A stretch of 64,000 nt of DNA. It comes from Cetorhinus maximus (Eukaryota). Each line of letters begins with the position of its first letter. The stretch's first letter is position 1. The stretch is taken from contig NC_135888.1 of the NCBI RefSeq assembly GCF_964194155.1, positions 104,470,001-104,534,000 of the forward strand. Reading direction: 5' to 3'. Below, piece by piece: positions 7,655 through 64,000 of the stretch. The position numbers were made by a program, and so were the translations under genes. Under the pieces are notes generated by a model, which saw nothing but the letters and a program-made list of their open reading frames with translations, did no database searches and was not told the origin of the DNA.

Positions 7655-7905
7655 AGGGCATGAAAATAGCACCACCTGCAAGTTGCCCTCGAAGTCACAG
7701 ACCATCCTGGCTTGGAAATATATCACTGTTCCTTCATTGTCACTGGGTTAAAGATCCTGGAACCCCCTCCTGAACAGCACTGTAGGAGTACTTTTACCAC
7801 ACAGCCTGCAGCATTTAAAAAAGACAGCTCATCCCCACTTTCTCAGGGGCAATTAGGGATGGTCAATAAATGCTGAGCTTGCCAGCAATGCTTACATCTC
7901 ATAAA
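7655..7905 (+). mobile_element. 3' end of the CR1/L2-group LINE family seen at 53100-56290
   Basis: CACCACCTGCAAGTT..GGGCAATTAGGGATGGTCAATAAATGCTG..CCAGCAATGC tail matches 48165-48400 and the reverse complement of 53100-53340. Confidence 0.8.
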
Positions 7906-7908
7906 TGA

Positions 7909-8050
7909 TGCTATGATCCCCGTAGAGACCGATAACTTTTAGAAAGATGTATGAGTTTCCCAGTGCCAACTCAAGTGACCGCATGTCAAGATTTCACATT
8001 TTAAGACTTTTACTGTAACAAACAAATGAAAATCAACAATGACCAAACAT
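7909..8050 (-). mobile_element. LTR-like 3' end fragment, same family as the end of 28430-28985
   Basis: TGCTATGATCCCCGTAGAGACCGATAAC..CACATTTTAAGACTTTTACTGTAACA matches the reverse complement of 28860-28985. Confidence 0.6.
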
Positions 8051-32529: not shown

Positions 32530-33630
32530 TTAAGATCTAAAGTTGTTGAATTCAATATTCAGCCCGGAAGGCTGTAAAGTGCCTAGTCGGAAGGTGAGGT
32601 GCTGTACCTCCAGTTTGCGTTGGGCTTCACTGGAACAATGCAGCAAGCCAAGGACAGACATGTGGGCAAGAGAACAGGGTGGAGTGTTAAAATGGCAAGC
32701 GACAGGGAGGTTTGGGTCTTTCTTGCGGACAGACCACAGGTGTTCTGCAAAGCGGTCGCCCAGTTTGCGTTTGGTCTCTCTAATGTAGAGGAGACCACAT
32801 TGGGAGCAATGAATGCAGTAGACTAAGTTAGGGGAAATGCAAGTGAAATGCTGCTTCACTTGAAAGGAGTGTTTGGGCCCTTGGACGGTGAGGAGAGAGG
32901 AAGTGAAGGGGCAGGTGTTGCATCTTCTGCGTGGGCATGGGGAGGTGCCATAGGTGGGGGTTGAGGAGTAGGGGGTGACGGAGGAGTGGACCAGGGTGTC
33001 CCGGAGGGAACGATCCCTACGGAATGCCTCCAGGGGGGGTGAAGGGAAGATGTGTTTGGTGGTGGCATCATGCTGGAGTTGGCGGAAATGGCGGAGGATG
33101 ATCCTTTGAATGCGGAGGCTGGTGGGGTGATAAGAGAGGACAAGGGGGACCCTATCTTGTTTCTGGGAAGGAGGAGAAGGCGTGAGGGCGGATGCGCGGG
33201 ATATGGGCCGGACACGGTTGAGGGCCCTGTCAACGACCGTGGGTGGAAAACCTCGGTTAAGGAAGAAGGAGGACATGTCAGAGGAGCTGTTTTTGAAGGT
33301 AGCGTCATCAGAACAGATGCGACGGAGGCGAAGGAACTGAGAGAATGGGATGGAGTCCTTACAGGAAGCGGGGTGTGAGGAGCTGTAGTCGAGATAGCTG
33401 TGGGAGTCGGTAGGCTTGTAATGGATATTGGTGGACAGTCTATCATCAGAAATTGAGACAGAGAGGTCAAGGAAGGGAAGAGTAGTGTCAGAGATGGACC
33501 ATGTGAAAATGATGGAGGGTGGAGATTGGAAGCAAAATTAATACATTTTTCCAGGTCCCGACGAGAGCATGAAGCAGCACCGAAGTAATCATCGATGTAC
33601 CGGAGAAAGAGTTGTGGGAGGGGGCCGGAG
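32530..33630 (-). pseudogene. PLE RT C-terminus, thumb/linker and GIY-YIG endonuclease (truncated, frameshifted)
   Basis: LFLRYIDDYF (RT YxDD), CPRRRCNTC, NLVYCIHCSQCGLLYIRETKRKLGDRFAEH, VACHF, GLNIEF. Confidence 0.92.
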
Positions 33631-33658
33631 AGGGACTTCCTCTCACTTCCTCTCACTT

Positions 33659-34037
33659 CTTCACTTCCTCTCTCCTCACCGTCCAAGGGCCCAAACACTC
33701 CTTTCAAGTGAAGCAGCATTTCACTTGCATTTCCCCTAACTTAGTCTACTGCATTCGTTGCTCCCAATGCGGTCTCCTCTACATTGGAGAGACCAAACGC
33801 AAACTGGGCGACCGCTTTGCAGAACACCTGCGGTCTGTCCGCAAGAAAGACCCAAACGTCCCTGTCGCTTGCCATTTTAACACTCCACCCTGTTCTCTTG
33901 CCCACATGTCTGTCCTTGGCTTGCTGCATTGTTCCAGTGAAGCCCAACGCAAACTGGAGGTACAGCACCTCACCTTCCGACTAGGCACTTTACAGCCTTC
34001 CGGGCTGAATATTGAATTCAACAACTTTAGATCTTAA
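33659..34037 (+). pseudogene. Inverted duplicate of the PLE GIY-YIG endonuclease domain
   Basis: NLVYCIRCSQCGLLYIGETKRKLGDRFAEHLRSV..GLNIEFNNFRS*. Confidence 0.9.
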
Positions 34038-43140: not shown

Positions 43141-43179
43141 TGAGGTGATGGTTAGGCACTGAGGTTTATTTATTTATTG

Positions 43180-43565
43180 TTTCATGGGATGTGAGCATCA
43201 TTGGCAGGACCAGCATTTGTTGCCCATCCCTAATCACCCTTGAACTAAGTGATTGGCTAGGCTCTTTCAGAGGGTAGCTAAGAGTCAACCACATTGCTGT
43301 GGGTCTGGAGCCACATGTAGGCCAGGCCAGATAAGGATGGCAGATTTCTTGATTAGTGAACCAGATTTTTTTTTAACAACAATTAATAATAGCATTATGG
43401 TCACAATTACTGAGATTGGCTTTCAATTCCAGATTTTATTCAACTAAATTTAAATTTCACTAGTGACTGCAGTGGGATTTGAACCTATATCCATCCCCCT
43501 GCACAATAATTGGGGCTGTTGGAACTCTAGCTCAATGCTATTACCACTACACCACCATCTCCCCC
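43180..43565 (-). mobile_element. tRNA-headed SINE made of the 5' ~320 bp and 3' ~65 bp of the LINE at 53100-56290
   Basis: A box TGGTGTAGTGG (43554-43544), B box GGTTCAAATCCC (43485-43474). Body matches 55968-56290, tail matches 53100-53166, junction near 43243. Confidence 0.8.
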
Positions 43566-46800: not shown

Positions 46801-47519
46801 TGAGACTTTTGAACAGGTGGGGTTGGGGCAGTGACTGTCCTCCGGGTATGGACATCATTACATCGCTCCAATTAGCCTCCTTCTTCAGTAGGTTTGTGGA
46901 TCCTTCAGTCTACCAGGTTTCTTTGCACTTATTTGACATGTTCCTGTTGATGGCACCAACCCTTGGTTAGATTGGTGTCACTCCACTGCTACCATGTTTC
47001 ATATATGCATGGCATGGTTGCTGACTTCTGGTATGCATGGTCTATCTTACCTAGAGAGGTTGTAGTCTCTCTGGTACTTACTTTAACTGGGTTATGAACA
47101 CTAGACATAAGATAGGTTACAGTATAGGTATGTCTCTCCTGAGTATAGAGTGTTCACCCTCTCATGTGTTCAGCACATGACTGCTGATGTCACTTATATA
47201 TCATGGTCTACATCACTCATTACCATAGTTCTTCTATTAATCCATTACACCACAAATAGTATGTTAGACTCTTGTTTTCAGAGATTTTTAACAGAGATAT
47301 TCTTGTGCAAAAGGGCAAGTCCTTGTCATTTCAGTAATTCCTACTTAATTGCAGTCAGCAGAGACTTAAGTAATACACCCAAAGGAGAAATGTAGAATCG
47401 CTGACAGGAACTTCTGGTTTCCCATGTTTTACTGTATATATGCAAACTTAAGACATTATTGTCAGTTTAGAGGAGTAATGACAATGAACGCCGACAGTTT
47501 AAAACATGAACAAAAGGGA

Positions 47520-48410
47520 TGAATTCCAAAGGTGAGGTGAGAGTGACTGCCCTTGACATCAAGGCAGTATTTGACCAGGTTGGGCATTAAGGAGCCCTAG
47601 CAAAACTGGAGGCAATGCGAATCAGGAGGAATACCCTTCATTATTTGGAGTCATACCTAGCACAAAGGAAGATGGTTGTGGTTTTTGGAGGTCAATCATC
47701 TCAGCTCCAGGGCATCACTGCAAGAGTTCCTGAGGGTAGTGTCCTAGGTCAAACCAACTTCAGCTACTTCATCAATGACCTCCTGTCCATCACAAGGTCA
47801 GAAGTGGGGATGTTTGCTGATGATTGCACAATGTTCAGCACCATTTGTGACTCCTCAGCTACTGAAGCAGTCCATGTCCAAATGCAGCAAGACCTGGACA
47901 ATGTCCAGGCTTGGGCTGTCAAGTGGCAAGTAATGGCCATCTCCATCAAGAGAGAATCTAAGCATTGCTTAGAATCCTGCGGCAAGTAACTCACCTCCTA
48001 ACAAAGCAGCCCACTTGACTGGCACCCCAACTACAAACATTTGCCCCCTCCACCACCGACGCACAGTGGCAGCTGTGTGCACCATCTACACGTAGATAGA
48101 CACCAATTTCCAAACCCACAACCGCTACCATCTAGAAGGACAAGGGCAGCAGATACATGGGTACACCACCACCTGGAGGTTCCTCTCCAAGCCATTCACC
48201 ATCCTAAATGGGAAATATATCACCGTTCCTTCACTGTCGCTGGGTCAAAATCCTGGAATTCCCTCCGTAACAGCATTGTGGGTGTACCTGTGTCACATGG
48301 ACTGCAGCAGTTCAAGAAGGCAGCTCACCACCACCTTCACAAGGGCAATTATGGATAGGCACTAAATGCTGGCCTAGCCAGCAAAGCCCACATCCCGTGA
48401 ATGAATTTTT
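47520..48410 (+). mobile_element. CR1/L2-group LINE 3' portion with internal deletions (family of 53100-56290)
   Basis: ALDIKAVFDQV, VPEGSVLGQTNFSYFINDL, MFADDC, QQDLDNVQAW, and the shared 3' tail. Confidence 0.88.
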
Positions 48411-48969: not shown

Positions 48970-50705
48970 AATCGTAGAATAATAGAGTAGTTGCAGCACA
49001 GAAGGAGGCTATTTGGTCTGTACCAGCTCTCTGTAAGAGCTATGTAGCTATTCCCACCACCCCCCACCCCGTCTTTTCACCATAGCCCTGCAAATTTTTA
49101 ACTCTTTGGATAATTAACCAATTCCCTTTTGAAAGCCAGGATTGAATCTGCCTCCACCACAATCTCAGGCAGTGCATTCCAGAACCTAACCACACACTGG
49201 GTAAAAAAAGTATTTTCTCACGTCGCCTCTGGTTCTTTTGCCATTCATCTTAGATCATTTCAACCTGGGCCCTTCCGACAATGGAACGCTTTCTCTCTAT
49301 CTACTCTGTCTAAATGCTCCTATCAAATGTCCTCTCAATCTGCTCTAAAGAGAACTGCACCAGCTTCTCCAATCTAACCTGATAACTGATGTCTCTTATC
49401 CCTGTAAACATTCTTGTCAATCTTTTCTGCACCATCTCCCATGCCTTCACATCCTTCCTAAGTGTGGTGCCCAATTTCAGCTGAGACAGAACCAGTGTCC
49501 TGTAAGTGTTCACCAAAGCTTCCTTGCATTTGTACTCTATGGGCCGAATTCTTCAGTCGGTGTGCGGGGGCAAGCCCGACATGCCGACATGTAAAATGAC
49601 GCACGATGATGTCAGGCGTGCGTCCCAACGTCACCGCGTGCCATTGCAATATTTCGTTCGGCAGGCGCGGGCTGGAGTCGGTTGCGCGCCTGCTGAAATG
49701 TAAACGGCCTATTAAGGCCATTAAGAAATTAATTGAAGCCACTTGTGAACCCTGCCCATCCAGCCTTACGGTAGGTGGGCAGGCGAAAAGCCCAAGCAGC
49801 CTACATGTTTTTTAGGAAACCTCATCCACGAGCGGGATGAGGTTTCCTAAAGCTTTTATTAAATAAATAAATACATTTTCATAAATATAAAAACATGTCC
49901 CAACTCATGTGACACAGCCACATGAGGGGATATGTTTAAATAAATTTTTACACCTTTTATTTAATAATTTTAATATAGATTCAATCTCCCTGATATATTG
50001 TGCCTCAGGGAGATTGAAGCACTTTTCCGTGTGCATGCGCGAAAGAGCGCTGGCCCCGACTCTCCCTCCTCCCCCCGCCCGCACAGATAGCGCTGAATGC
50101 CACCGGTTGCGTCTTACCATAGGCGGATCTTAATTGACCTGCCCGTGTGAAATGGTGACGTGGAACCGATCGCAGGCGGCGATCGGCTCTGCGCCTGCCT
50201 CCGCCCGCTCCCGCTGAGCCCGCCTGCCATATGAAAAAGTCTGCTCTATGCCTCATTTATAAAGCCCAGGATGCTGTATGCCTCATTAACCGCTTTCTCA
50301 GCCTGCTCTGCCACCTTCAATGATTTGCGTGCATATACCCAGGGCCCTTCTGTTCTTGCATCCAATGTTGAATTGTATTCTTTGTTTTATGTTGCCTTTC
50401 CTCATTCTTCCTCCCAAAATTTACCACTTCACGCTTCTCTGCATTAAATTTCATCTGTATATCTGTCCATTCCACCAGCCTGTCTATGTGCTCTTGAGGT
50501 CTATCACTATCCTCCTTACTGTTCACAATATTTCCAAGTTTTGTTTCACCTGCTAATTTTGAAATTATGTCCTACACACTCAAATCTAGGTTATCAACAT
50601 AGATCAAGAAAAGCAGTGGTCCTTATACAGACCCCTGGGGAACCCCACTATACACCCTCATCCAGTTTGAAAATTAACCATTCACTGCTTCTCTCTGTTT
50701 CCTTT
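48970..50705 (-). mobile_element. CR1 LINE 3' portion split by MITE 49541-50246
   Basis: GVPQGSV*GP, DSDRPQEHIDRLVEW..MKFNAEK, VQKRLTRM..ISYQVRLEKL. Sequence is continuous across the MITE (GTACTC-TAT-GCCTC). Confidence 0.85.
49541..50246. mobile_element. ~700-bp Harbinger MITE
   Basis: TIRs GGGCCGAATTCT / AAAAGTCTGCTC, TSD TAT/TAT. Confidence 0.9.
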
Positions 50706-52885: not shown

Positions 52886-53099
52886 GGCCTACCTGCAAAG
52901 TTCTACTGCAGGAGGTGCCACTAGCCATTCTTCTCACACAGTATGTGTAGAGTGTGGCACATGAAGATTTGTGTCCCTTGCATGCGTCTGAAGTCACTGA
53001 AAGTGCGCAATTACTGATGTTACTGACTTCAAGGGCTGGTGCAATACATAAGTGGTAAGATTGGTCAAGGAATGTGGAGGAAATTCACCCCCTCCTTTT

Positions 53100-56000
53100 A
53101 TCCTTTCATGGGATGTGGGTGTTGCTGGCTAGGCCAGCTTTTATTACCCACCCCTAATTGCACTTGAGAAGGCGGAGGTGAGCTGCCTTCTTGAACAGTT
53201 GCAGTCCATGTAGTGTAGGTACACCCACAGTGCCATTAGGGAGGGAGTTCCAGCATTTTGTTCCAGTGACAGTGAAGGAACGGCGATATAGTTCCAAGTC
53301 AGGATGGTGTATGGCTTGGAGGGGAACTTGCAGGTGGTGTTGCTCCCTTGCATCTGCTGTTTTTGTACTTCTAAGTGGTAGAGGTCATGGGTTTGGAAGG
53401 TGCTGTTGAGCTGCAGCTTTGGTGAATTGCTGCAGTGCATCTTGTCAAGGGAAGACACTGCTGCTACTGTGCGTCAGTAGTGGAGGGAGTGGATGATGAA
53501 GGTGGTGGATGGAGTTCAAATATTTGCCCTGCTTTGTCCTGGTTGGTGTCAAGCTTCTTGAGTGTTGTTGGAGCTGCACTCATCCAGTCAAATGGAGAGT
53601 ATTCCATCACAGTCCTGACTTGTGCCTTGTAGATGGCTTTGGGGAGTCAGGAGGTGAGTTACTCTCCACAAAATTCCCAGCCTTTGGCCTGCTCTTATAA
53701 TCACAGTATTCATATGGCTAATTCAATTCAGTTTCTGATTAATTTTAACCCCCAGGATGTTGATATTCAGCGATGGTACTGCATTGAATGTCAAGGGGCA
53801 ATGTTTAGATTCTCTCTTGTTGGAGATGGCCATTGCCTGGCACTTGTGTGGTGCAAATGTCACTTATCAGCCCAAGCCTGAATGTTGTCCAGGTCTTGCT
53901 GCATGTGGGCACAGACTGCTTCAGTATCTGAAGAGTTTCAAACGGTGCTGAACATTGTGCAATCATTAGCAAACACCCTCACTTCTGACTTTGTGATGAA
54001 GGACAGATCATTGATGAAGCAGCTGAAGATGGTTGGGCCCGGGACACTACCCTGAGGAACTCCTGCAGCGATGTCCTGGGACTGAGATCAGTGATTTCCA
54101 ACAACCACAATCATCTTCCTTTGTGCTAGATATGACTCCAACCAGTGGAGATTTTCCCCTGATTCTCATTGACTCCAATTTTGGTAGGGCTCCTTGATGC
54201 CACACACTGTCAAATGTGGCCTTGTTGTCAAGGGCAGTCACTCTCTCCTCACCTCTGGAGTTCAACTCTTTTGTCCATGTTTGAACCAAGGCTACAATGA
54301 GATCAGAAGCTGAGTGGCCCTGGTAGAACCTAAACTGAGCATCAGTGAGCAGGTTATTGCTGAGTAAACGTCGCTTGATAGCACTGTCAACTATAATATT
54401 CCTTCCATCACTATGATGATGATTGAGAGCAGACTGAAGGGGCGGTAATTGGCTCGGTTGGGTTTGTCCTGCCTTTTGTGGACAGGACATACCAGGACAA
54501 TTTTCCACATTGTCAGGTAAACGCCAGTATTGTAGCTGTGCTGGAACAGCTTGGCTAAGGGTGCAGCCAGTTCTGGAGCAAAAGTCTTCAGTAGTATTTC
54601 TGGAATGTTATCAGGGCCCATAGATTTTGCAGTGTCCAGCGCCTTCAGCTGTTTCTTGCTATTACGTGGAGTGAATCGCGTTGGCTGAAGACTGGCATCT
54701 ATGATGCTGGGGACCTCAGGAGGAGGCCGAGATCAATCATCCACTCGGCACTTCTGGTTGAAGATTGTTGCAAATGCTTCAGCCTTGTCTTTTGCACTGA
54801 TATGCTGGGTACCCACATCATTGAGGATGGAGATATTGTGGAACATCCTCCTCCTATTGGTTGTGCAATTGTTCACCACCATTCATGACTGGGTGTAGCA
54901 GGACAGCAGAACTTAGATTGTTGGTTGCGGGATTGCTTAACTCTATCTACTACACACTGCTTTCGCTGTTTGTGTTATAGCTTCGCCAGGTTGACACCTC
55001 ATTTTTAGGTGTGCCTGGTGTTGTTCCTGGCATGCACTCCTGCACTTTCCATTGAACTAGGGTTGATCCCCTGGTTTGTTGATAATGGTAGAGTGGGGGA
55101 TATGCCGGGCCATGAGATTACAGATTGTATTTGTATGCAATTCTGCTGCTCTTGATAGCCCACAGTGCCTCATGGATGCCCAATTTTGAGTTGCTGGATC
55201 TGCTTGAAATCTATCCCATTTAGCACGGTGGTAGTGCCACACAACACGATGGAGGGTATCCTCAATGTGAAGGCGGCACCTTGTCTCCAGAAGGACTGTG
55301 CAGTGGTCACTCCTACCGATACTGTCATGGACAGATGCCTCTGTGACAGGTAGATTGGTGAGGACCAGGTCAAGTATGTTTTTCCCTCTTGGTTCCCTCA
55401 CCACCTGCCGCAGACCCAGTCTAGCAGCTATGTCCTTTAGGACTCGGCCAGCTGGGTCAGTTGTGGTGCTACCGAGCCACTCTTGGTGATGAAGACCTCC
55501 AGGTCAGAGCACAATCTGTGCTCTTGCCACCCTCAATGCTTCTTCCAAGTGGTGTTCAACATGGATGAGTACTGATTCATCAGCTCAGGGGGTGGGAGGT
55601 GTGGGGTAGGTGGTAATTAGCAGGAGGTTTCCTTTTCCATGTTTGACCTGATGCTATGTGACTTCATGGGGTTTTAGAGAATTCCCAGGGCAATTCCCTC
55701 CCAACTGTATACCACTATGCTGCCACCCCTGGTGGCTCTGTCCTGTCAGTGGGGACAGGGATGGTGATAATGGTGTCTGAGACATTGTCTGTCAGGTATG
55801 ATTCCATGAGTATGACTATGCCAGGCTATTGCTTGATTAGCCTGTGGGACAGTTCTCCCAATTTTGGCACAAGCCTTAGTAAGGAGGACTTTGCAGGGTT
55901 GACTGTGCTTGCCCTTGTCATTTTCAGTATCTAGGTCATTGCCAGGTGGTCCATGTGGTTTTGGATACAACTGAGTGGCTTGCCAGGCCATTTCAGAGGT

Positions 56001-56290
56001 CACTTAAGAATAAACCACATTGCTGTGTGTCTGAAGTTACATGTGGGCCAGACCAGATGAGGGCGGCAGATTTCCTTCCCTAAGAGACGTTAGTGAACCA
56101 GGTTGGTTTTTATGACAATCAACAATGGTTTCATAATCACTATTACCAAGACTAGCTTTTTAATTCCAGATTTATTAACAGAATTTAAGCTCCACCAGCT
56201 GCTGTGGTGGTGTTCAAGCCCATGTACCCAGAGAGTTAGCCTGGACCCTGGATTACTAGTTTGATGATATTACCACTATGCCACAATGCC
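53100..56290 (-). mobile_element. Apparently full-length (~3.2 kb) single-ORF APE-RT LINE of the CR1/L2 group with a tRNA-like 5' head, decayed
   Basis: A box TGGCATAGTGG (56283-56273). APE: KLGELSHRL..IVILMESYL, LDLVLTNL..GRSDH. RT: GPDNIP..LAKLFQHSY..NYRPFSLLS, ALDNKATFDSVWH, GVPQGSVPGP. Shared 3' tail. Confidence 0.88.
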
Positions 56291-56599
56291 ACAACCAATG
56301 TTAGGACAGAGGATGTGCCCTCTCCCAGGCCTATTTAAAAGGTCATTCAACAAGTTGCAGTTGAGGTGGTTTTGACTTACTTACACTCAGGCAAAGTTTT
56401 GATGAGTTGTGGGAGGAAAATTTGGAGGATTCTGCTGGCCACAGAAAGGCAGAAAATACTATAGCCTTGCATAGGTATAGGGATACCAAATGAACAGGAG
56501 GGTACTCAGTTAAATCATGATGCATGTGTGCCTGCAGCAACAACCCTCCTGCACTTCAACTGTATAGACAATGTCTCTGACCTGCTTGGCATTGAGTAT

Positions 56600-56896: not shown

Positions 56897-57659
56897 TCTG
56901 CCTTTGCCCATACCTGCTGTAAAGGTGCCAACAGCTATTACAACAGAAGGTAGCCTTGGTCTCAGATAAGCTTTAAATGACTGACTAAATAGCAACTGCT
57001 TCTGGATACATTAAACCATCATGGGTGCTTCTTGCTACAAGTGCATTGTTCCTGCGATTGTAATTGGGAAAAGGCTCGGGAGATGTTGGTGTTAGCATCT
57101 AATAGGTTGGGGTTTGGGGAAAGACATTTCAAGACTCTGCGTCGTTGAGGCATGCGATCCCAGGCCCGTTAGCACCTCAGTGCCAAGTGCTGGGCCCGTC
57201 GATGTCTCGATGCATGATCCAGGGTCTGGCGGTGGCAGCGCTTGTGACCCTGAGCCGGTTGTCCTCCTGAGGAAACTGATCTGCCTAGATCCCAGAGGGA
57301 GGAATGCCCGGTGGGGGTTTGGATGAGGTGACAGACACTGTCTCCCCAGCTCCCAGCCTACCCAGAAGAGGCGCCACCTCTCAGAGGGGAAGGAGCTCAT
57401 GACTTGTGGGGTCAAATGTGCCTCCTACCCCTACGAAAAGGAGGTAGCGCCCCTACCACGCAAGTCCTCATCCTGTCCTCTGGGTGAGGTACAGGAACCT
57501 GACACTTTGTCGCAGTCCCCTGGGCAGGGCCCCTTGGGGGGTCAGTGAGGGTACTACCATAGTGGCGGCCCATCCTGTACTCCCAAGGTGCCATCTGGCC
57601 TGCCAGGCGACTGCGACAGCCCCTTAACTGCTCCAAATGCTGGGTCTGGAATGTTATCC

Positions 57660-59820
57660 ACTTTTACCAGAGGATTGGTCTGTCGAGTGCCTTTCTGTCT
57701 CTTGACCAGGAGAAGGCGTTCGAGAGAGTGGAGCACGAATATTTATTCAGGACTCTGTGAGCATTTGGGCTTGGGATGCATTTCGTCACCCGGATCCGAC
57801 TTCTGTACGCTGCTGCAGAGTGTCTAGTCAAGGCTAATGGGTACCTGATGGTGCCCCTTCACTTTGGGAGAGGAGTGCACCAGGTCTGCCCCCTGTCTGG
57901 CCAATTGTATTCTATCTGAGTGGAGCCTTTCCTGCGCCTCTTGTGGAGGAAGGCATTGGGATTGGTTCTGCATGGGCTGGGCATCAGGGTGGTCCTCTCG
58001 GCTTACGCCGATGACGTGCTCCTCATGACCCAGCTGACCTGAGAAGGGTGCGCGAGTGCCAGGAGGTGTACTCCACTGCGTCCTCTGCCAGAATCAACTG
58101 CGGCAAGTGTTCTGGACTCCTGGTCGGCCCGTGGCAGATGGAACCCCTACCTGAGGAGCTCTGGCCTTTCACCTGCATGAGGACGAGTCTCCCCTACCTG
58201 AGGGTCTACCTCTGCCCCGCTGAGGAATCCTGGCCGGCGAACTGGCAGGAGTTGGAGACCAAAGTCAGCACTCACCTCCAGCGGTGGACAGGACTGCTCC
58301 GAGTGCTGTCCTACCAGGGTCGAGTTCTGGTCATAAACCAGCTGATTGCCGCCATGTTGTGGTACGGGCTGGTCACCTTGACCCCTCCCCCGGACTTTGT
58401 CACAAAAATCCAGAGAATGCTCATCGACTTCTTCTGGGACAGAAGGCTGCATTGGGTTGCTGCTGAGGTTCTGAGTCTCCCGCTTAAGGAGGGTGGTCAG
58501 GCGCTGGTGTGCCTACGCACCCAGGTGGCGACTTTCCACCTTCAGGCCTTGCAGCCATAAATTTACGTAGTGCCCCCTCCTAAATGGTGTGCCCAGGCGA
58601 CATATTTCTCCTGCCGGATGCACGGCCTGAATTACGACATGTAGCTCCTCTTCAGAGGCCCGAGGGGTCTTCATGGCTCCTTGCAGGCGTTACCCGTCTT
58701 TTACCAGGACATGACCAAATTCTGGAACATGGTCGCCTCGCTCTGCAGAGCTCCACTATCAGGTGTAGCAGCTATTGTCAGGGAGCCGCTGCTCAGGAAT
58801 CCGCATCTCCACCCTTTCAGGTGGCTGGCGGAAGGGAGCGCTGTGGCGGCCGAGGTGAACAGAATTGGGGACGTGTTGGCGCTTGTTGGTGTTGGCGCTT
58901 CATGCATCCATGGACATCCAGCACACGGCCAATGCCATCCAAGACCTCAGGACTGTTGTGCTTGGCACACGTGGGCTCGAGGAGGTGCAGGTGCGCGAGT
59001 GGACTCCCATTTGAGCGAACCCCTGCTCAGAAGGAATTCCACATTGGTCCAAAACTCTGAATCCTCCCTCGGGTAGCACAGCCCCGCAACCTGAGCTGCC
59101 TCATGGAAATACCCTCTGTGCCCTTTAGCTCGGTGCGAAGGGGTTTCCTGTATGGGCTACTACTGCACACCCTTCACCGCTCCCCGATACGCTTTGGTGT
59201 GCCTTGTTGCTGTCCAGCAGCGGAGGTCCCCAGTGGAGGGCTTTCTACTTGGGAGTCCTTCACATTATTATCAGGGACCCAGAGTGGAGGATGTGGCATG
59301 CAGCATTCCCATACAACTATGGGATGTGTCAATTCAAGGACTCCCAGGATGCCTGTGCATTTTGCAGGTTTGTGGAATGTGTGGACCATGTCGATGTTTC
59401 ATTTTGTAGACTGCACCCCCTTTTTAGCTTATTTAAAAAGCCTTTTGCTTTTGTTTTGGTTGCAGTTCAGTTCAGTCCCACACTCCTGTTCTTCAGATAC
59501 CTGGTGCGGGGAGGGGCGGGGACGGAGGAACTTGCTCCTGGGCCTGGCCATCAACAGGTCCAGGCAGTTGGTGACCGAGGGGCCCGTCTGGCCTAACTGT
59601 CTGCCCCACTTCCGCAGCTACGTTCACAGCTGGATGTCCTTGGAGAGGGAGGATGCAGTGTCTACCGAGGCCTTCCATGCTCAGTGGGCACTGCGGGGGC
59701 TGGGGTGCTTTATAGATCCTTATAATCACATTTTGGCTTGATGTTTGTAAATTTCCTTTAACGTTTGACTTTTAGTTCGCAGTGTCCCTTTAAGGGGCTG
59801 CATCTTATTTTACCCTTTTG
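57660..59820 (+). mobile_element. Tx1/L1-group non-LTR retrotransposon, 5'-truncated and decayed
   Basis: LSLDQEKAFERVEHEYL, GVHQVCPLSGQLYS, SAYADDV, LSYQGRVLVINQL..LWY, FFWDRRLHWVA..GGQALV, CAFCRFVECVDHV (CCHC). Confidence 0.9.
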
Positions 59821-59839
59821 AGTGCAACAAATTAGACTA

Positions 59840-60045
59840 AATTAAAGGAAACGAGGGACAAAGTAAGAGGTAGCCCTTAAAGGGACGTGGCAAAAGAAAA
59901 CACAAGTCACAAAGAAATCTTGCACCACCAAATCAAAATGTGAGTAGAGGGATCAATAAAGCACTCGGTCCTCATGGTGCCCACTGAGCACAGAAGGCTG
60001 CATCTTGTTTTGTCCCTCATTTTTCCTAATTTAATCAGTTTCATC
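59840..60045. mobile_element. Two further Tx1 3'-end pieces: 59840-59998 (-) and 59996-60045 (+)
   Basis: Reverse complement of 59840-59998 aligns to 59670-59815. 59996-60045 repeats the GGCTGCATCTT..TTT.CCC tail. Confidence 0.75.
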
Positions 60046-62419: not shown

Positions 62420-64000
62420 AGGGGGAGTTAAAAGGACTATAGTTTTAGTAGGGGACAGTGTAGACAGGGGGATAGATACAGTTCTCTGCAGCCGAAAGCA
62501 TGAGTCCTGAAGACTGTATTACCTGCCCAGTGCCAGGGTTAAGGACATCTCCTCAGGGCTGGAAAGGAACTTGGAGTGGGAGGGGAAGGATCCAGTTGTC
62601 ATTGTCCATGTAGGTACCAATGATATAAGTAGGACTAAGAAAGAGGTTCTGCTAAGGGAGTATGAACATCCAGGGGTTAAATTGAAAAAGCAGAACCATA
62701 AAGGTAATAATCTCTGGATTACTACTTGAGCCATGAGAATATTGGCATAGGGTAAATAAGATCAGAGAATTGAATGCATGGTTTAAAGATTGGTGTGGGA
62801 GAAATGGGCTTCGAATCATGGGCACTGGCACCAGTACTGGGTAAAGAGGGGGCTGAACAATTATACAGCCTTCACCATTAGCATTCTGGGACAAATTTCC
62901 TGGTGAATCACAACTAGGATTGTAGAGAGGCCTTTAAGTGGGGGATGGGGAGGGTTGGGCTCATGTTAAGGGAGATTTGGAAAGTTAAAGAGAAAAGACA
63001 AGGAAGTGGTGCAGGGTAATGATATGGGTAATGAACACCAGAGTGGCGGGAAAGGACAGCGTACACAAACATAATATTGTACCAGCAAATAAGGTCAGAG
63101 TAGGCAAAAACAGTAAAAAGACAGAATTAAAATCCCTTTATTTGGATGCAGTCATAATAAGATGAATAAATTGACAGCACAAATAGAAATAATTGAGTCT
63201 ACTATGATAACCATTACAGAGATGTGGTTGCAAGGTAACCAAGGCTGTGACTTGAATATTCAAGAGCATTCGACATTCCGGAAGGACAAGAGGAAAGAAA
63301 AAGGAGGTGTGGTAGCTCTGTTAATAAAGGATGAGATCAGTACAACAGTTAAAAATGATCTTGGTTAAAAAGATCAAGATGTAGAATCAGTTTGGATGGT
63401 GATAAAGAATAACAAAGGAAATAAGCCACTGGTGGGAATAGCTTACATACCCCTTAACAGTAGCTACACAGTAAGACAGAGTGTATATCAAGAAATAATG
63501 AGGGCTTGCAAAAAAGTTACTGTAATGATTATGGGTGACTTTAATCTTCACATCAATTGTGCAATTCAAATTTGCAACAGTAGCCAGGAGGATGAGTCAA
63601 TAAAGTACATTCAGGACAATTTCTTAGAAGAATACATTCTGTAATCTACAAGGAACCAGGGTATTTTGGACCTGGTAATATATCACATAACTGGATTAAT
63701 TAAAGACCTCATGATAAAAGGTCCTCTAGGCAAGAGTGATCATAACATTCACATTTAGTTTGCAAGTAAGGAATCTGGGTCCATAACCAGTGTCTTAAAC
63801 TTAAGTAAAGACAATTACATTGATAAGAAGATAGACTTGGCTAAAGTGGACAGAGTAAGTAGGTTAAAAGGTAAGATGGTAGAGAAGTAGTGGAAGGCAT
63901 TTAAAGATATATTTCATAACTCTCAACAAAGATATATTCCATCATGGAAGAAAGTTTCTATCAGAAGAATGCACCATCCATAGCTAACTAAGCAAATTAA
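62420..64000 (+). mobile_element. CR1 LINE 5' region: ORF1 esterase (SGNH-like) domain and start of ORF2 APE, running off the window
   Basis: VLVGDSV, LPSARVKDI, VIVHVGTNDI, VIISGLL; then ITITEMWL, GGVVALLIK, IMGDFN, LGKSDHN. Confidence 0.88.

What the first reader, a model, noticed from the sequence alone, without database searches (positions are those of the whole stretch)
53100..56290. ORF1-less APE-RT LINE with a tRNA-like (Pol III) 5' head
Seen: on the minus strand the element starts with a consensus A box (TGGCATAGTGG) and a degenerate B box (GGCTTGAACACC), followed by a ~250-bp SINE-like body. The APE N-terminus begins about 100 bp later, so there is no room for an ORF1. The SINE tail is absent at the body/APE junction (~55968), which argues against a simple adjacent SINE insertion. 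My manual scan found only two T4 runs on the sense strand (~53670, ~54580). Known: CR1/L2-group LINEs usually have ORF1 and Pol II 5' UTR promoters, and T4+ runs terminate Pol III. Inference: this may be an autonomous LINE lineage that uses a SINE-type Pol III promoter.
Basis: partly seen in the sequence, partly recalled or inferred. Interest (0 to 1): 0.75.

Follow-up and report, generated by a model that had tools for sequence, protein, structure and literature searches.

The report
Shark Zenon LINE with tRNA promoter
This is a dead copy of an abundant shark-and-ray jumping gene that encodes its own copying enzymes yet begins with the tRNA-type promoter boxes of short non-coding repeats and lacks the T-runs that stop RNA polymerase III, so it is likely a protein-coding element made by that polymerase, which no experiment has yet shown.

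Summary
Window 56293-53096 (minus strand) is a decayed copy (86.5% to the family majority) of the elasmobranch Zenon LINE catalogued in PMC13343379, so lacking ORF1 is ordinary. The tRNA-Thr-like head is not a one-off: 39 of 39 other scored places span the head-endonuclease junction; 23 of 60 copies picked by endonuclease alone reach the same 5' end, and no other shared 5' end appeared. All 7 published elasmobranch consensuses start with it, yet that paper's text never mentions tRNA, promoter or polymerase. The 3.29-kb majority has no T4 run; natural copies have 0.16 per kb against 2.6 for CR1 in the same genome, on the sense strand only. The reading frame was under purifying selection but has no conserved in-frame AUG. 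A partner SINE equals its first ~312 and last ~70 bases. Best reading: an autonomous, likely Pol III-transcribed LINE (0.55). Against it: no transcript evidence, CR1 also shows mild T-cluster avoidance in codon shuffles, and the translation route is unexplained. The scan noted this family before on other DNA.

The parts
56200..56293 (-). tRNA-Thr(AGT)-like head, 5' end of the element
   Evidence: Copies stop matching each other upstream of this point; ARAGORN calls the family majority tRNA-Thr at 7-95 only with a relaxed threshold, and 9 of 97 sequences Thr(AGT) at default
56273..56283 (-). Pol III A box (starts at +11 of the element)
   Evidence: pattern met in 51 of 66 LINE heads
56248..56264 (-). 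anticodon stem-loop, loop CTAGTAA (5' strand decayed in this copy)
56225..56245 (-). extra hairpin between the boxes; looks like a duplicated anticodon arm
   Evidence: folds as a hairpin; compensatory differences between CarCar and SquAca consensuses read by eye
56209..56220 (-). Pol III B box, decayed here; GGTTCRAATCC in the family
   Evidence: strict pattern met in 28 of 66 LINE heads
55969..56199 (-). body shared with the partner SINE; this copy carries the older, SINE-like variants
   Evidence: same variants in SquAca_Zenon-1/2 by eye
55983..55991 (-). in-frame ATG closed two codons later by TAG in most copies (TGG in this copy)
   Evidence: 27 of 50 copies TAG, 7 GAG, 3 CAG, 5 TGG; TAG in 6 of 7 published consensuses
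55893..55968 (-). leader, partly deleted here; in the family it holds an out-of-frame ATG and an Arg-rich stretch in frame with the endonuclease
55290..55892 (-). apurinic-type endonuclease domain (broken)
   Evidence: Pfam PF03372 and PF14529 on copy L081
53850..54510 (-). reverse transcriptase domain (broken)
   Evidence: Pfam PF00078 E=3e-37 on copy L081
54580..54583 (-). T4 run, a decay mutation of this copy
53670..53673 (-). T4 run, a decay mutation of this copy
53096..53166 (-). 3' tail shared with the SINE: stop codon 53156-53154, stem-loop, short A tail; no target-site duplication seen
43173..43475 (-). separate copy of the partner SINE (body joined directly to the tail; head worn)
47499..48401 (+). 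5'-truncated copy of the same LINE
7670..7909 (+). 5'-truncated copy of the same LINE (3' end only)

Best explanation
This is a dead copy of the elasmobranch Zenon LINE, a single-frame endonuclease-RT retrotransposon whose full-length form begins with a tRNA-derived A/B-box head and is likely transcribed by RNA polymerase III from that head. Shown: the head is the family's 5' end, travels with the coding region, carries LINE-specific variants, and the sense strand has no T4 run. Inferred: TFIIIC binds the boxes, Pol III starts about 10 bases before the A box and runs 3.3 kb because no terminator intervenes; selection against premature termination removed the T-runs; the uncapped RNA would be translated without a conserved in-frame AUG (non-AUG start or a shift from the conserved out-of-frame ATG; unresolved); the protein would bind the 3' stem-loop and reverse-transcribe at a nick. 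The partner SINE is likely an internal-deletion product that kept promoter and tail.
For: Junction shared by 39 of 39 other scored places. Of 60 copies chosen by endonuclease match alone, 23 reach within 30 nt of the same 5' end (two are a 99% duplicate pair), 14 end within head or body, 23 are shorter; no alternative 5' end is shared at one junction. LINE heads differ from SINE heads at fixed sites, so heads were inherited, not re-captured each time. All 7 elasmobranch consensuses in the supplement of PMC13343379 start with the head, A box kept; the hagfish and coelacanth ones do not in the 400 nt shown. Majority of 33 copies: 0 T4 in 3294 nt (4.4 expected by base shuffle, P=0.013), 4 T3+ in the frame against 12.8 after synonymous-codon permutation (0 of 5000 as low). 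33 natural copies: T4 0.16/kb and TT o/e 0.72 (0.67-0.82) against 30 CR1 copies 2.56/kb and 1.09 (1.01-1.17); antisense strand 4.1/kb; Tx1 about 4/kb. 18 metagenome relatives have TT o/e 0.85-1.38, and the one in the same tree clade (L221) shows no depletion. Pyrimidine tracts are not depleted. Shared variants in the frame are 38 synonymous to 35 non-synonymous against 413 to 1129 for singletons, P=1e-5.
Against: No transcript evidence: only contigs were held, RNA status guessed, coverage 3'-biased as for copies inside other transcripts. T4=0 alone is not significant once codon counts are fixed (P=0.08). The CR1 control also shows codon-order avoidance of T clusters (4 T in 5 nt: z=-2.8 against -2.7 here; TT z=-2.2 against -4.5), so that test does not separate them; the absolute counts do (17 against 1). 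Low Phe is partly a clade trait (closest protein P0088 2.3%, sponge relatives 3.0-3.4%, here 1.8%). Shared variants did not avoid making TTT measurably more than singletons (1 of 73 against 43 of 1542; low power). TA is depleted too (z=-2.9). Only one close relative with DNA was available as control. 3.3 kb is far longer than usual Pol III products and such RNA has no normal cap (own knowledge); no start codon is identified.
Confidence: 0.55

Rival explanations
1. The head is a captured SINE 5' end that serves a Pol II-transcribed LINE (as TFIIIC-bound enhancer or insulator, as structured RNA for translation, or as a passive leader read from flanking promoters); low T reflects composition or avoidance of U-rich processing signals.
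For: LINEs are described as Pol II-transcribed (PMC5786205; PMC10886601). CR1 shows mild T-cluster avoidance too. Element is T-poor overall (20%) and relatives are Phe-poor. Capped RNA would ease translation.
Against: 5' ends pile up about 10 nt before the A box, as for Pol III starts; depletion is far stronger than in two co-resident LINEs and 18 relatives and is sense-strand specific; pyrimidine tracts are not avoided; boxes are kept across sharks and a ray while the spacer changes; no in-frame AUG for a scanning ribosome.
Confidence: 0.33
2. Pol III makes the RNA, but the tRNA-headed form is a long passenger: the protein comes in trans from a differently headed, Pol II-driven master that is rare or missed.
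For: No conserved in-frame AUG in headed copies; only 60 of at least 77,241 first-look candidates were examined.
Against: No other shared 5' end among 60 copies; all 7 published consensuses from 5 species carry the head; the frame shows purifying selection among these copies, and a passenger would be expected to lose it, as the SINE did.
Confidence: 0.09
3. A one-off or recurrent chimera: a SINE inserted at, or template-switched onto, a 5'-truncated LINE.
For: Single tRNA/LINE-1 chimeras are known (PMC13174262 passages); this copy and a minority of others carry SINE-type head variants (7 of 50).
Against: Same junction in 39 of 39 places and in 5 species; most LINE heads carry variants absent from the SINE; 4 of the 7 SINE-type heads sit together on long branches of the endonuclease tree and match the Squalus LINE consensus, so they look ancestral.
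Confidence: 0.03

Closest known systems
Elasmobranch Zenon (CR1-Zenon) LINEs: CarCar_Zenon-1, ScyCan, RhiTyp, HypSab, SquAca_Zenon-1/2/3 (Stuart et al. 2026, PMC13343379; passages, sections 13 and 43, outline, supplement rows cut at 400 nt)
   Same: Same family: the first 400 nt of CarCar_Zenon-1 match the majority built here almost letter for letter by eye, length 3288 against 3294; no ORF1; A tail.
   Different: The paper's main text has 0 occurrences of tRNA, promoter, polymerase or start codon; the head, T-run depletion, missing AUG and partner SINE are not described there. Files on Zenodo were not seen.
Persaeus SIDE and its partner Zenon in Lepidoptera (PMC6740152, passages)
   Same: A Zenon gives rise to a short element made of its 5' end, the start of the frame and its 3' end.
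   Different: Persaeus has no tRNA homology and no Pol III promoter; here both long and short element carry the head.
Bipartite RTE/Vingi-derived SINEs such as Bov-tA and SINE2_Gav (Kojima 2018, PMC5786205, parts 1-4 of 5)
   Same: tRNA head plus LINE 5' part plus LINE tail.
   Different: There the head is added to an already deleted LINE and only RTE and Vingi were found; here the head sits on the full coding LINE. [quoted passage not shown]
tRNA/LINE-1 chimeric insertions in mammals (PMC13174262, passages)
   Same: tRNA sequence joined 5' of a LINE.
   Different: 21 single loci, mostly tRNA halves in antisense; not a propagating family.
R2 retrotransposons (recalled, not from a call, apart from the ribozyme statement)
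   Same: Single frame; uncapped RNA; in Drosophila reported to lack a conserved AUG.
   Different: R2 is a Pol I co-transcript released by a ribozyme; no Rfam ribozyme was found here.

Membership tests
Zenon (CR1-group LINE) | APE and RT in one frame | tested here: met
   Pfam on copy L081; majority frame about 976 codons
Zenon (CR1-group LINE) | no ORF1 | tested here: met
Zenon (CR1-group LINE) | poly-A tail | tested here: met
   A run of 5 or more within 26 nt in 45 of 60 LINE tails
Zenon (CR1-group LINE) | sequence identity with the published elasmobranch Zenon consensuses | tested here: met
   motif hit and by-eye match over the 400 nt shown
Zenon (CR1-group LINE) | RT groups with labelled Zenon references in a tree | tested here: inconclusive
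   No labelled references were held; the RT falls in a supported clade with sponge and unnamed proteins, apart from shark CR1 (Tx1 and 3 short rows left out for length)
Canonical CR1 | esterase ORF1 or RT grouping with CR1 | tested here: not met
   no ORF1; 33% RT identity to shark CR1 and separate clade
tRNA-derived SINE (SINE2) | tRNA-related head with A and B boxes | tested here: met
tRNA-derived SINE (SINE2) | short and non-coding | tested here: not met
   3.3 kb with a frame under purifying selection; met only by the about 380-nt partner
tRNA-derived SINE (SINE2) | transcribed by Pol III | not testable with these tools
   only contigs held; T-run depletion is indirect
Deu-, Meta- or UCON3-domain SINEs | conserved body domain | tested here: inconclusive
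   no likeness by eye to the alignments in the supplement of PMC7245038; not aligned; CORE and V domains not compared
Ribozyme-headed LINEs (R2, RTE, Ingi) | 5' self-cleaving ribozyme | tested here: inconclusive
   no Rfam match near gathering score in 3 heads; divergent HDV-like folds would be missed

The most novel reading that the evidence does not exclude
An autonomous, protein-coding retrotransposon transcribed by RNA polymerase III: a 3.3-kb uncapped RNA, purged of terminators, translated without a conserved in-frame AUG, kept across sharks and rays, and turning into a complete SINE by a single internal deletion.
Probability: 0.45. Interest if true: 0.88.

Novelty: new variant of a known kind. 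Interest (0 to 1): 0.62.

Why it matters
The split 'LINEs use Pol II, SINEs use Pol III' is stated as a rule in the papers read, and Kojima 2018 says SINEs cannot encode a protein. A natural Pol III-made messenger of 3.3 kb would break that rule, give a test case for cap-independent and AUG-independent translation in a vertebrate, and supply a full-length tRNA-headed intermediate from which a SINE arises by one deletion. The family is large (77,241 first-look candidates for an endonuclease piece), so it also matters for annotating shark genomes.

Tried and rejected
T-runs at the 3' end (18 of 60 LINE and 11 of 45 SINE tails) looked like a built-in Pol III terminator, but T4A4 outnumbers A4T4 away from tails as well (81 against 28), so a general mutation of A tracts explains it; not used as evidence. 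The ATG at family position 289 as start codon: rejected, closed by TAG in most copies, and several GAG/CAG copies have TAA a few codons later or length changes. Search for an intact copy: longest open frame 751 aa among 150 and 130 scored hits, so the family looks inactive here (only best candidates are scored). Target-site duplications: none seen by eye in 14 copies. Rfam: nothing real. RNA contigs from 4 runs (RNA status guessed): no information on starts. DNA contigs of three coded organisms cover head, junction and endonuclease and drop at the 5' end, but no listed piece bridges the junction with 31 letters on both sides. SacSINE1/CmiSINE of PMC5499810 (parts 1-3 of 6; no supplement readable) appear to be other families (Deu/CORE body, L2 tail); not aligned. 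Literature: ten searches found no description of a tRNA-headed Zenon or a Pol III LINE; the Kramerov and Vassetzky review was not held; Repbase, Dfam and subscription journals were not searchable.

Full report
Observation. The minus strand of 56293-53096 holds, in order, an A box (56283-56273), a worn B box (56220-56209), a body to 55969, a short leader, broken endonuclease and reverse-transcriptase domains, a stop at 53156-53154 and a short A tail. The genome is a 4.0-Gb vertebrate assembly; the closest named protein hits are from sharks and rays.

The fusion is a family trait. A 321-nt query across the junction gave 40 scored places of 8,619 candidates; all 39 others span the junction at 73-80%. 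To avoid choosing on the junction, I searched with an endonuclease piece and fetched 60 of the 149 other hits, the first 40 by rank and 20 with longer open frames. Their 5' ends fall within 30 nt of one point in 23, in the tRNA part in 7, the body in 7, the leader in 2 and the endonuclease in 21. Only two pairs share upstream sequence: a 99% duplicate pair, and two truncated copies that abut a CR1 ORF1 fragment at different junctions. Upstream of the common start the alignment loses all agreement.

Identity. PMC13343379 (2026) reports Zenon elements in five elasmobranchs, all without ORF1 and with an A tail. Its supplement holds CarCar_Zenon-1, whose first 400 nt match my majority almost exactly by eye, and six more elasmobranch consensuses that all begin with the head; the hagfish and coelacanth Zenons do not, in the part shown. 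So the family and the missing ORF1 are known. The main text has no occurrence of tRNA, promoter or polymerase. In my tree the RT groups with sponge and unnamed proteins, apart from shark CR1; no labelled Zenon reference was held.

The head. The family form has a canonical A box at +11, an anticodon arm with a Thr(AGT) loop, an extra hairpin and a canonical B box. ARAGORN gives 14 hits among 97 sequences at default threshold, 9 Thr(AGT), and calls the majority only when relaxed; it finds nothing in the window copy. Between CarCar and SquAca the extra hairpin differs by two compensatory pairs, and in SquAca it reads as a duplicate of the anticodon arm (by eye).

The partner SINE. A short element of about 380 nt equals the LINE's first ~312 nt joined to its last ~70 nt; one copy lies at 43475-43173. 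SINE and LINE heads differ at fixed sites, including an 8-nt indel. Seven of 50 LINE copies, this one included, carry mostly SINE-type states; four of them sit together on long branches of an endonuclease tree with little other structure, and the Squalus LINE consensus carries the same states, so they look ancestral. Internal deletion of a headed LINE is the simpler origin, with the lepidopteran Persaeus as precedent, but capture of an existing SINE's 5' end is not excluded.

T-runs. The majority of 33 copies has no T4 in 3,294 nt and six T3. Base shuffles expect 4.4 T4 (P=0.013). Synonymous-codon permutation expects 2.1 T4 (P=0.08, not significant), 12.8 T3+ against 4 seen and 97 TT against 78 (0 of 5000 as low); Phe is TTT 4, TTC 14, TTA is unused, and the pyrimidine before a TTN codon is C in 12 of 12. 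Natural copies agree: 0.16 T4 per kb and TT o/e 0.72, against 2.56 and 1.09 in 30 CR1 copies, 4.1 per kb on the antisense strand and 4.5 in flanks; three Tx1 copies have about 4 per kb. Eighteen of 26 metagenome relatives (those with longer matches) have TT o/e 0.85-1.38, and L221, in the same clade, is not depleted. Against: CR1 also falls below its codon permutations for T clusters (z=-2.8 against -2.7), TA is depleted here too, low Phe is partly inherited, and shared variants show no measurable extra avoidance of TTT.

Coding. Shared non-CpG variants are 38 synonymous to 35 non-synonymous, singletons 413 to 1129 (P=1e-5), so master copies were under selection for the protein. Yet the in-frame ATG near the end of the body is followed by TAG in 27 of 50 copies and in 6 of 7 published consensuses, and the stretch after it varies in length. 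A second ATG is conserved 110 nt before a fixed endonuclease codon, out of frame. The in-frame leader is Arg-rich like the N-terminus of the closest protein P0088, which does start with Met. How translation starts is unexplained; a non-AUG start would fit an uncapped RNA, as recalled for R2, but CR1-group second frames often lack an AUG too (own knowledge; the CR1 control frame here also opens without Met).

Status. This copy is 86.5% identical to the majority, others 91-96%; no intact frame was seen among the scored hits. RNA contigs gave no information on starts or polymerase.

Verdict. A real, conserved and apparently unremarked feature of a catalogued LINE family. Pol III transcription is the best explanation for the joint presence of the boxes, the start position and strand-specific loss of T-runs (0.55), with a Pol II role for a captured head as the main rival (0.33). 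Ten literature searches found no prior description; Repbase, Dfam, Zenodo files and subscription journals were not seen. Earlier notes of this scan reach the same reading on other DNA; they are not independent evidence and were read after my own identification was set.

Noticed in passing
window 57400-60000 (+); relatives such as G000:C21:34827706-34871114, C2:163818774-163864971, C19:88675224-88699218: A Tx1/L1-like LINE next to the finding has many young relatives with an intact 1303-aa frame, often stacked head to tail at about 7.1-7.7 kb spacing, suggesting repeated insertion at one site or self-targeting.
   Followed up: no
L071 and L085 (G000:C28:3070988-3076422, C637:173788-179225): Two 5'-truncated Zenon copies directly follow nearly the same point of a CR1 ORF1 esterase-like fragment in the same orientation, with different Zenon breakpoints; insertion hot spot or chimeras.
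   Followed up: partly
3' tails of LINE and SINE copies; own-genome loci generally: A tracts often read T(n)A(n): T4A4 106 against A4T4 28 in 0.94 Mb, a strong directional mutation pattern.
   Followed up: partly
proteins P0004, P0015, P0023, P0024, P0029, P0030, P0035: Pieces of this LINE's frame (54-72% identity) are included in annotated shark and ray gene models such as aldo-keto reductase, anoctamin-7 and Sp4; annotation artefact or exonisation.
   Followed up: no
proteins P0001, P0003 and cluster members: The closest named non-shark relatives are from the calcareous sponge Sycon ciliatum at about 35%, in line with the patchy spread of Zenon noted in PMC13343379.
   Followed up: partly
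window 8920 (+), 12111 (+), 40180 (-), 33537-33740 (-), 50300-50655 (-), 62421-62712: Fragments that look like PIF/Harbinger transposase, a Penelope-like RT with GIY-YIG nuclease, and CR1 (the first two named from recall of motifs).
   Followed up: no
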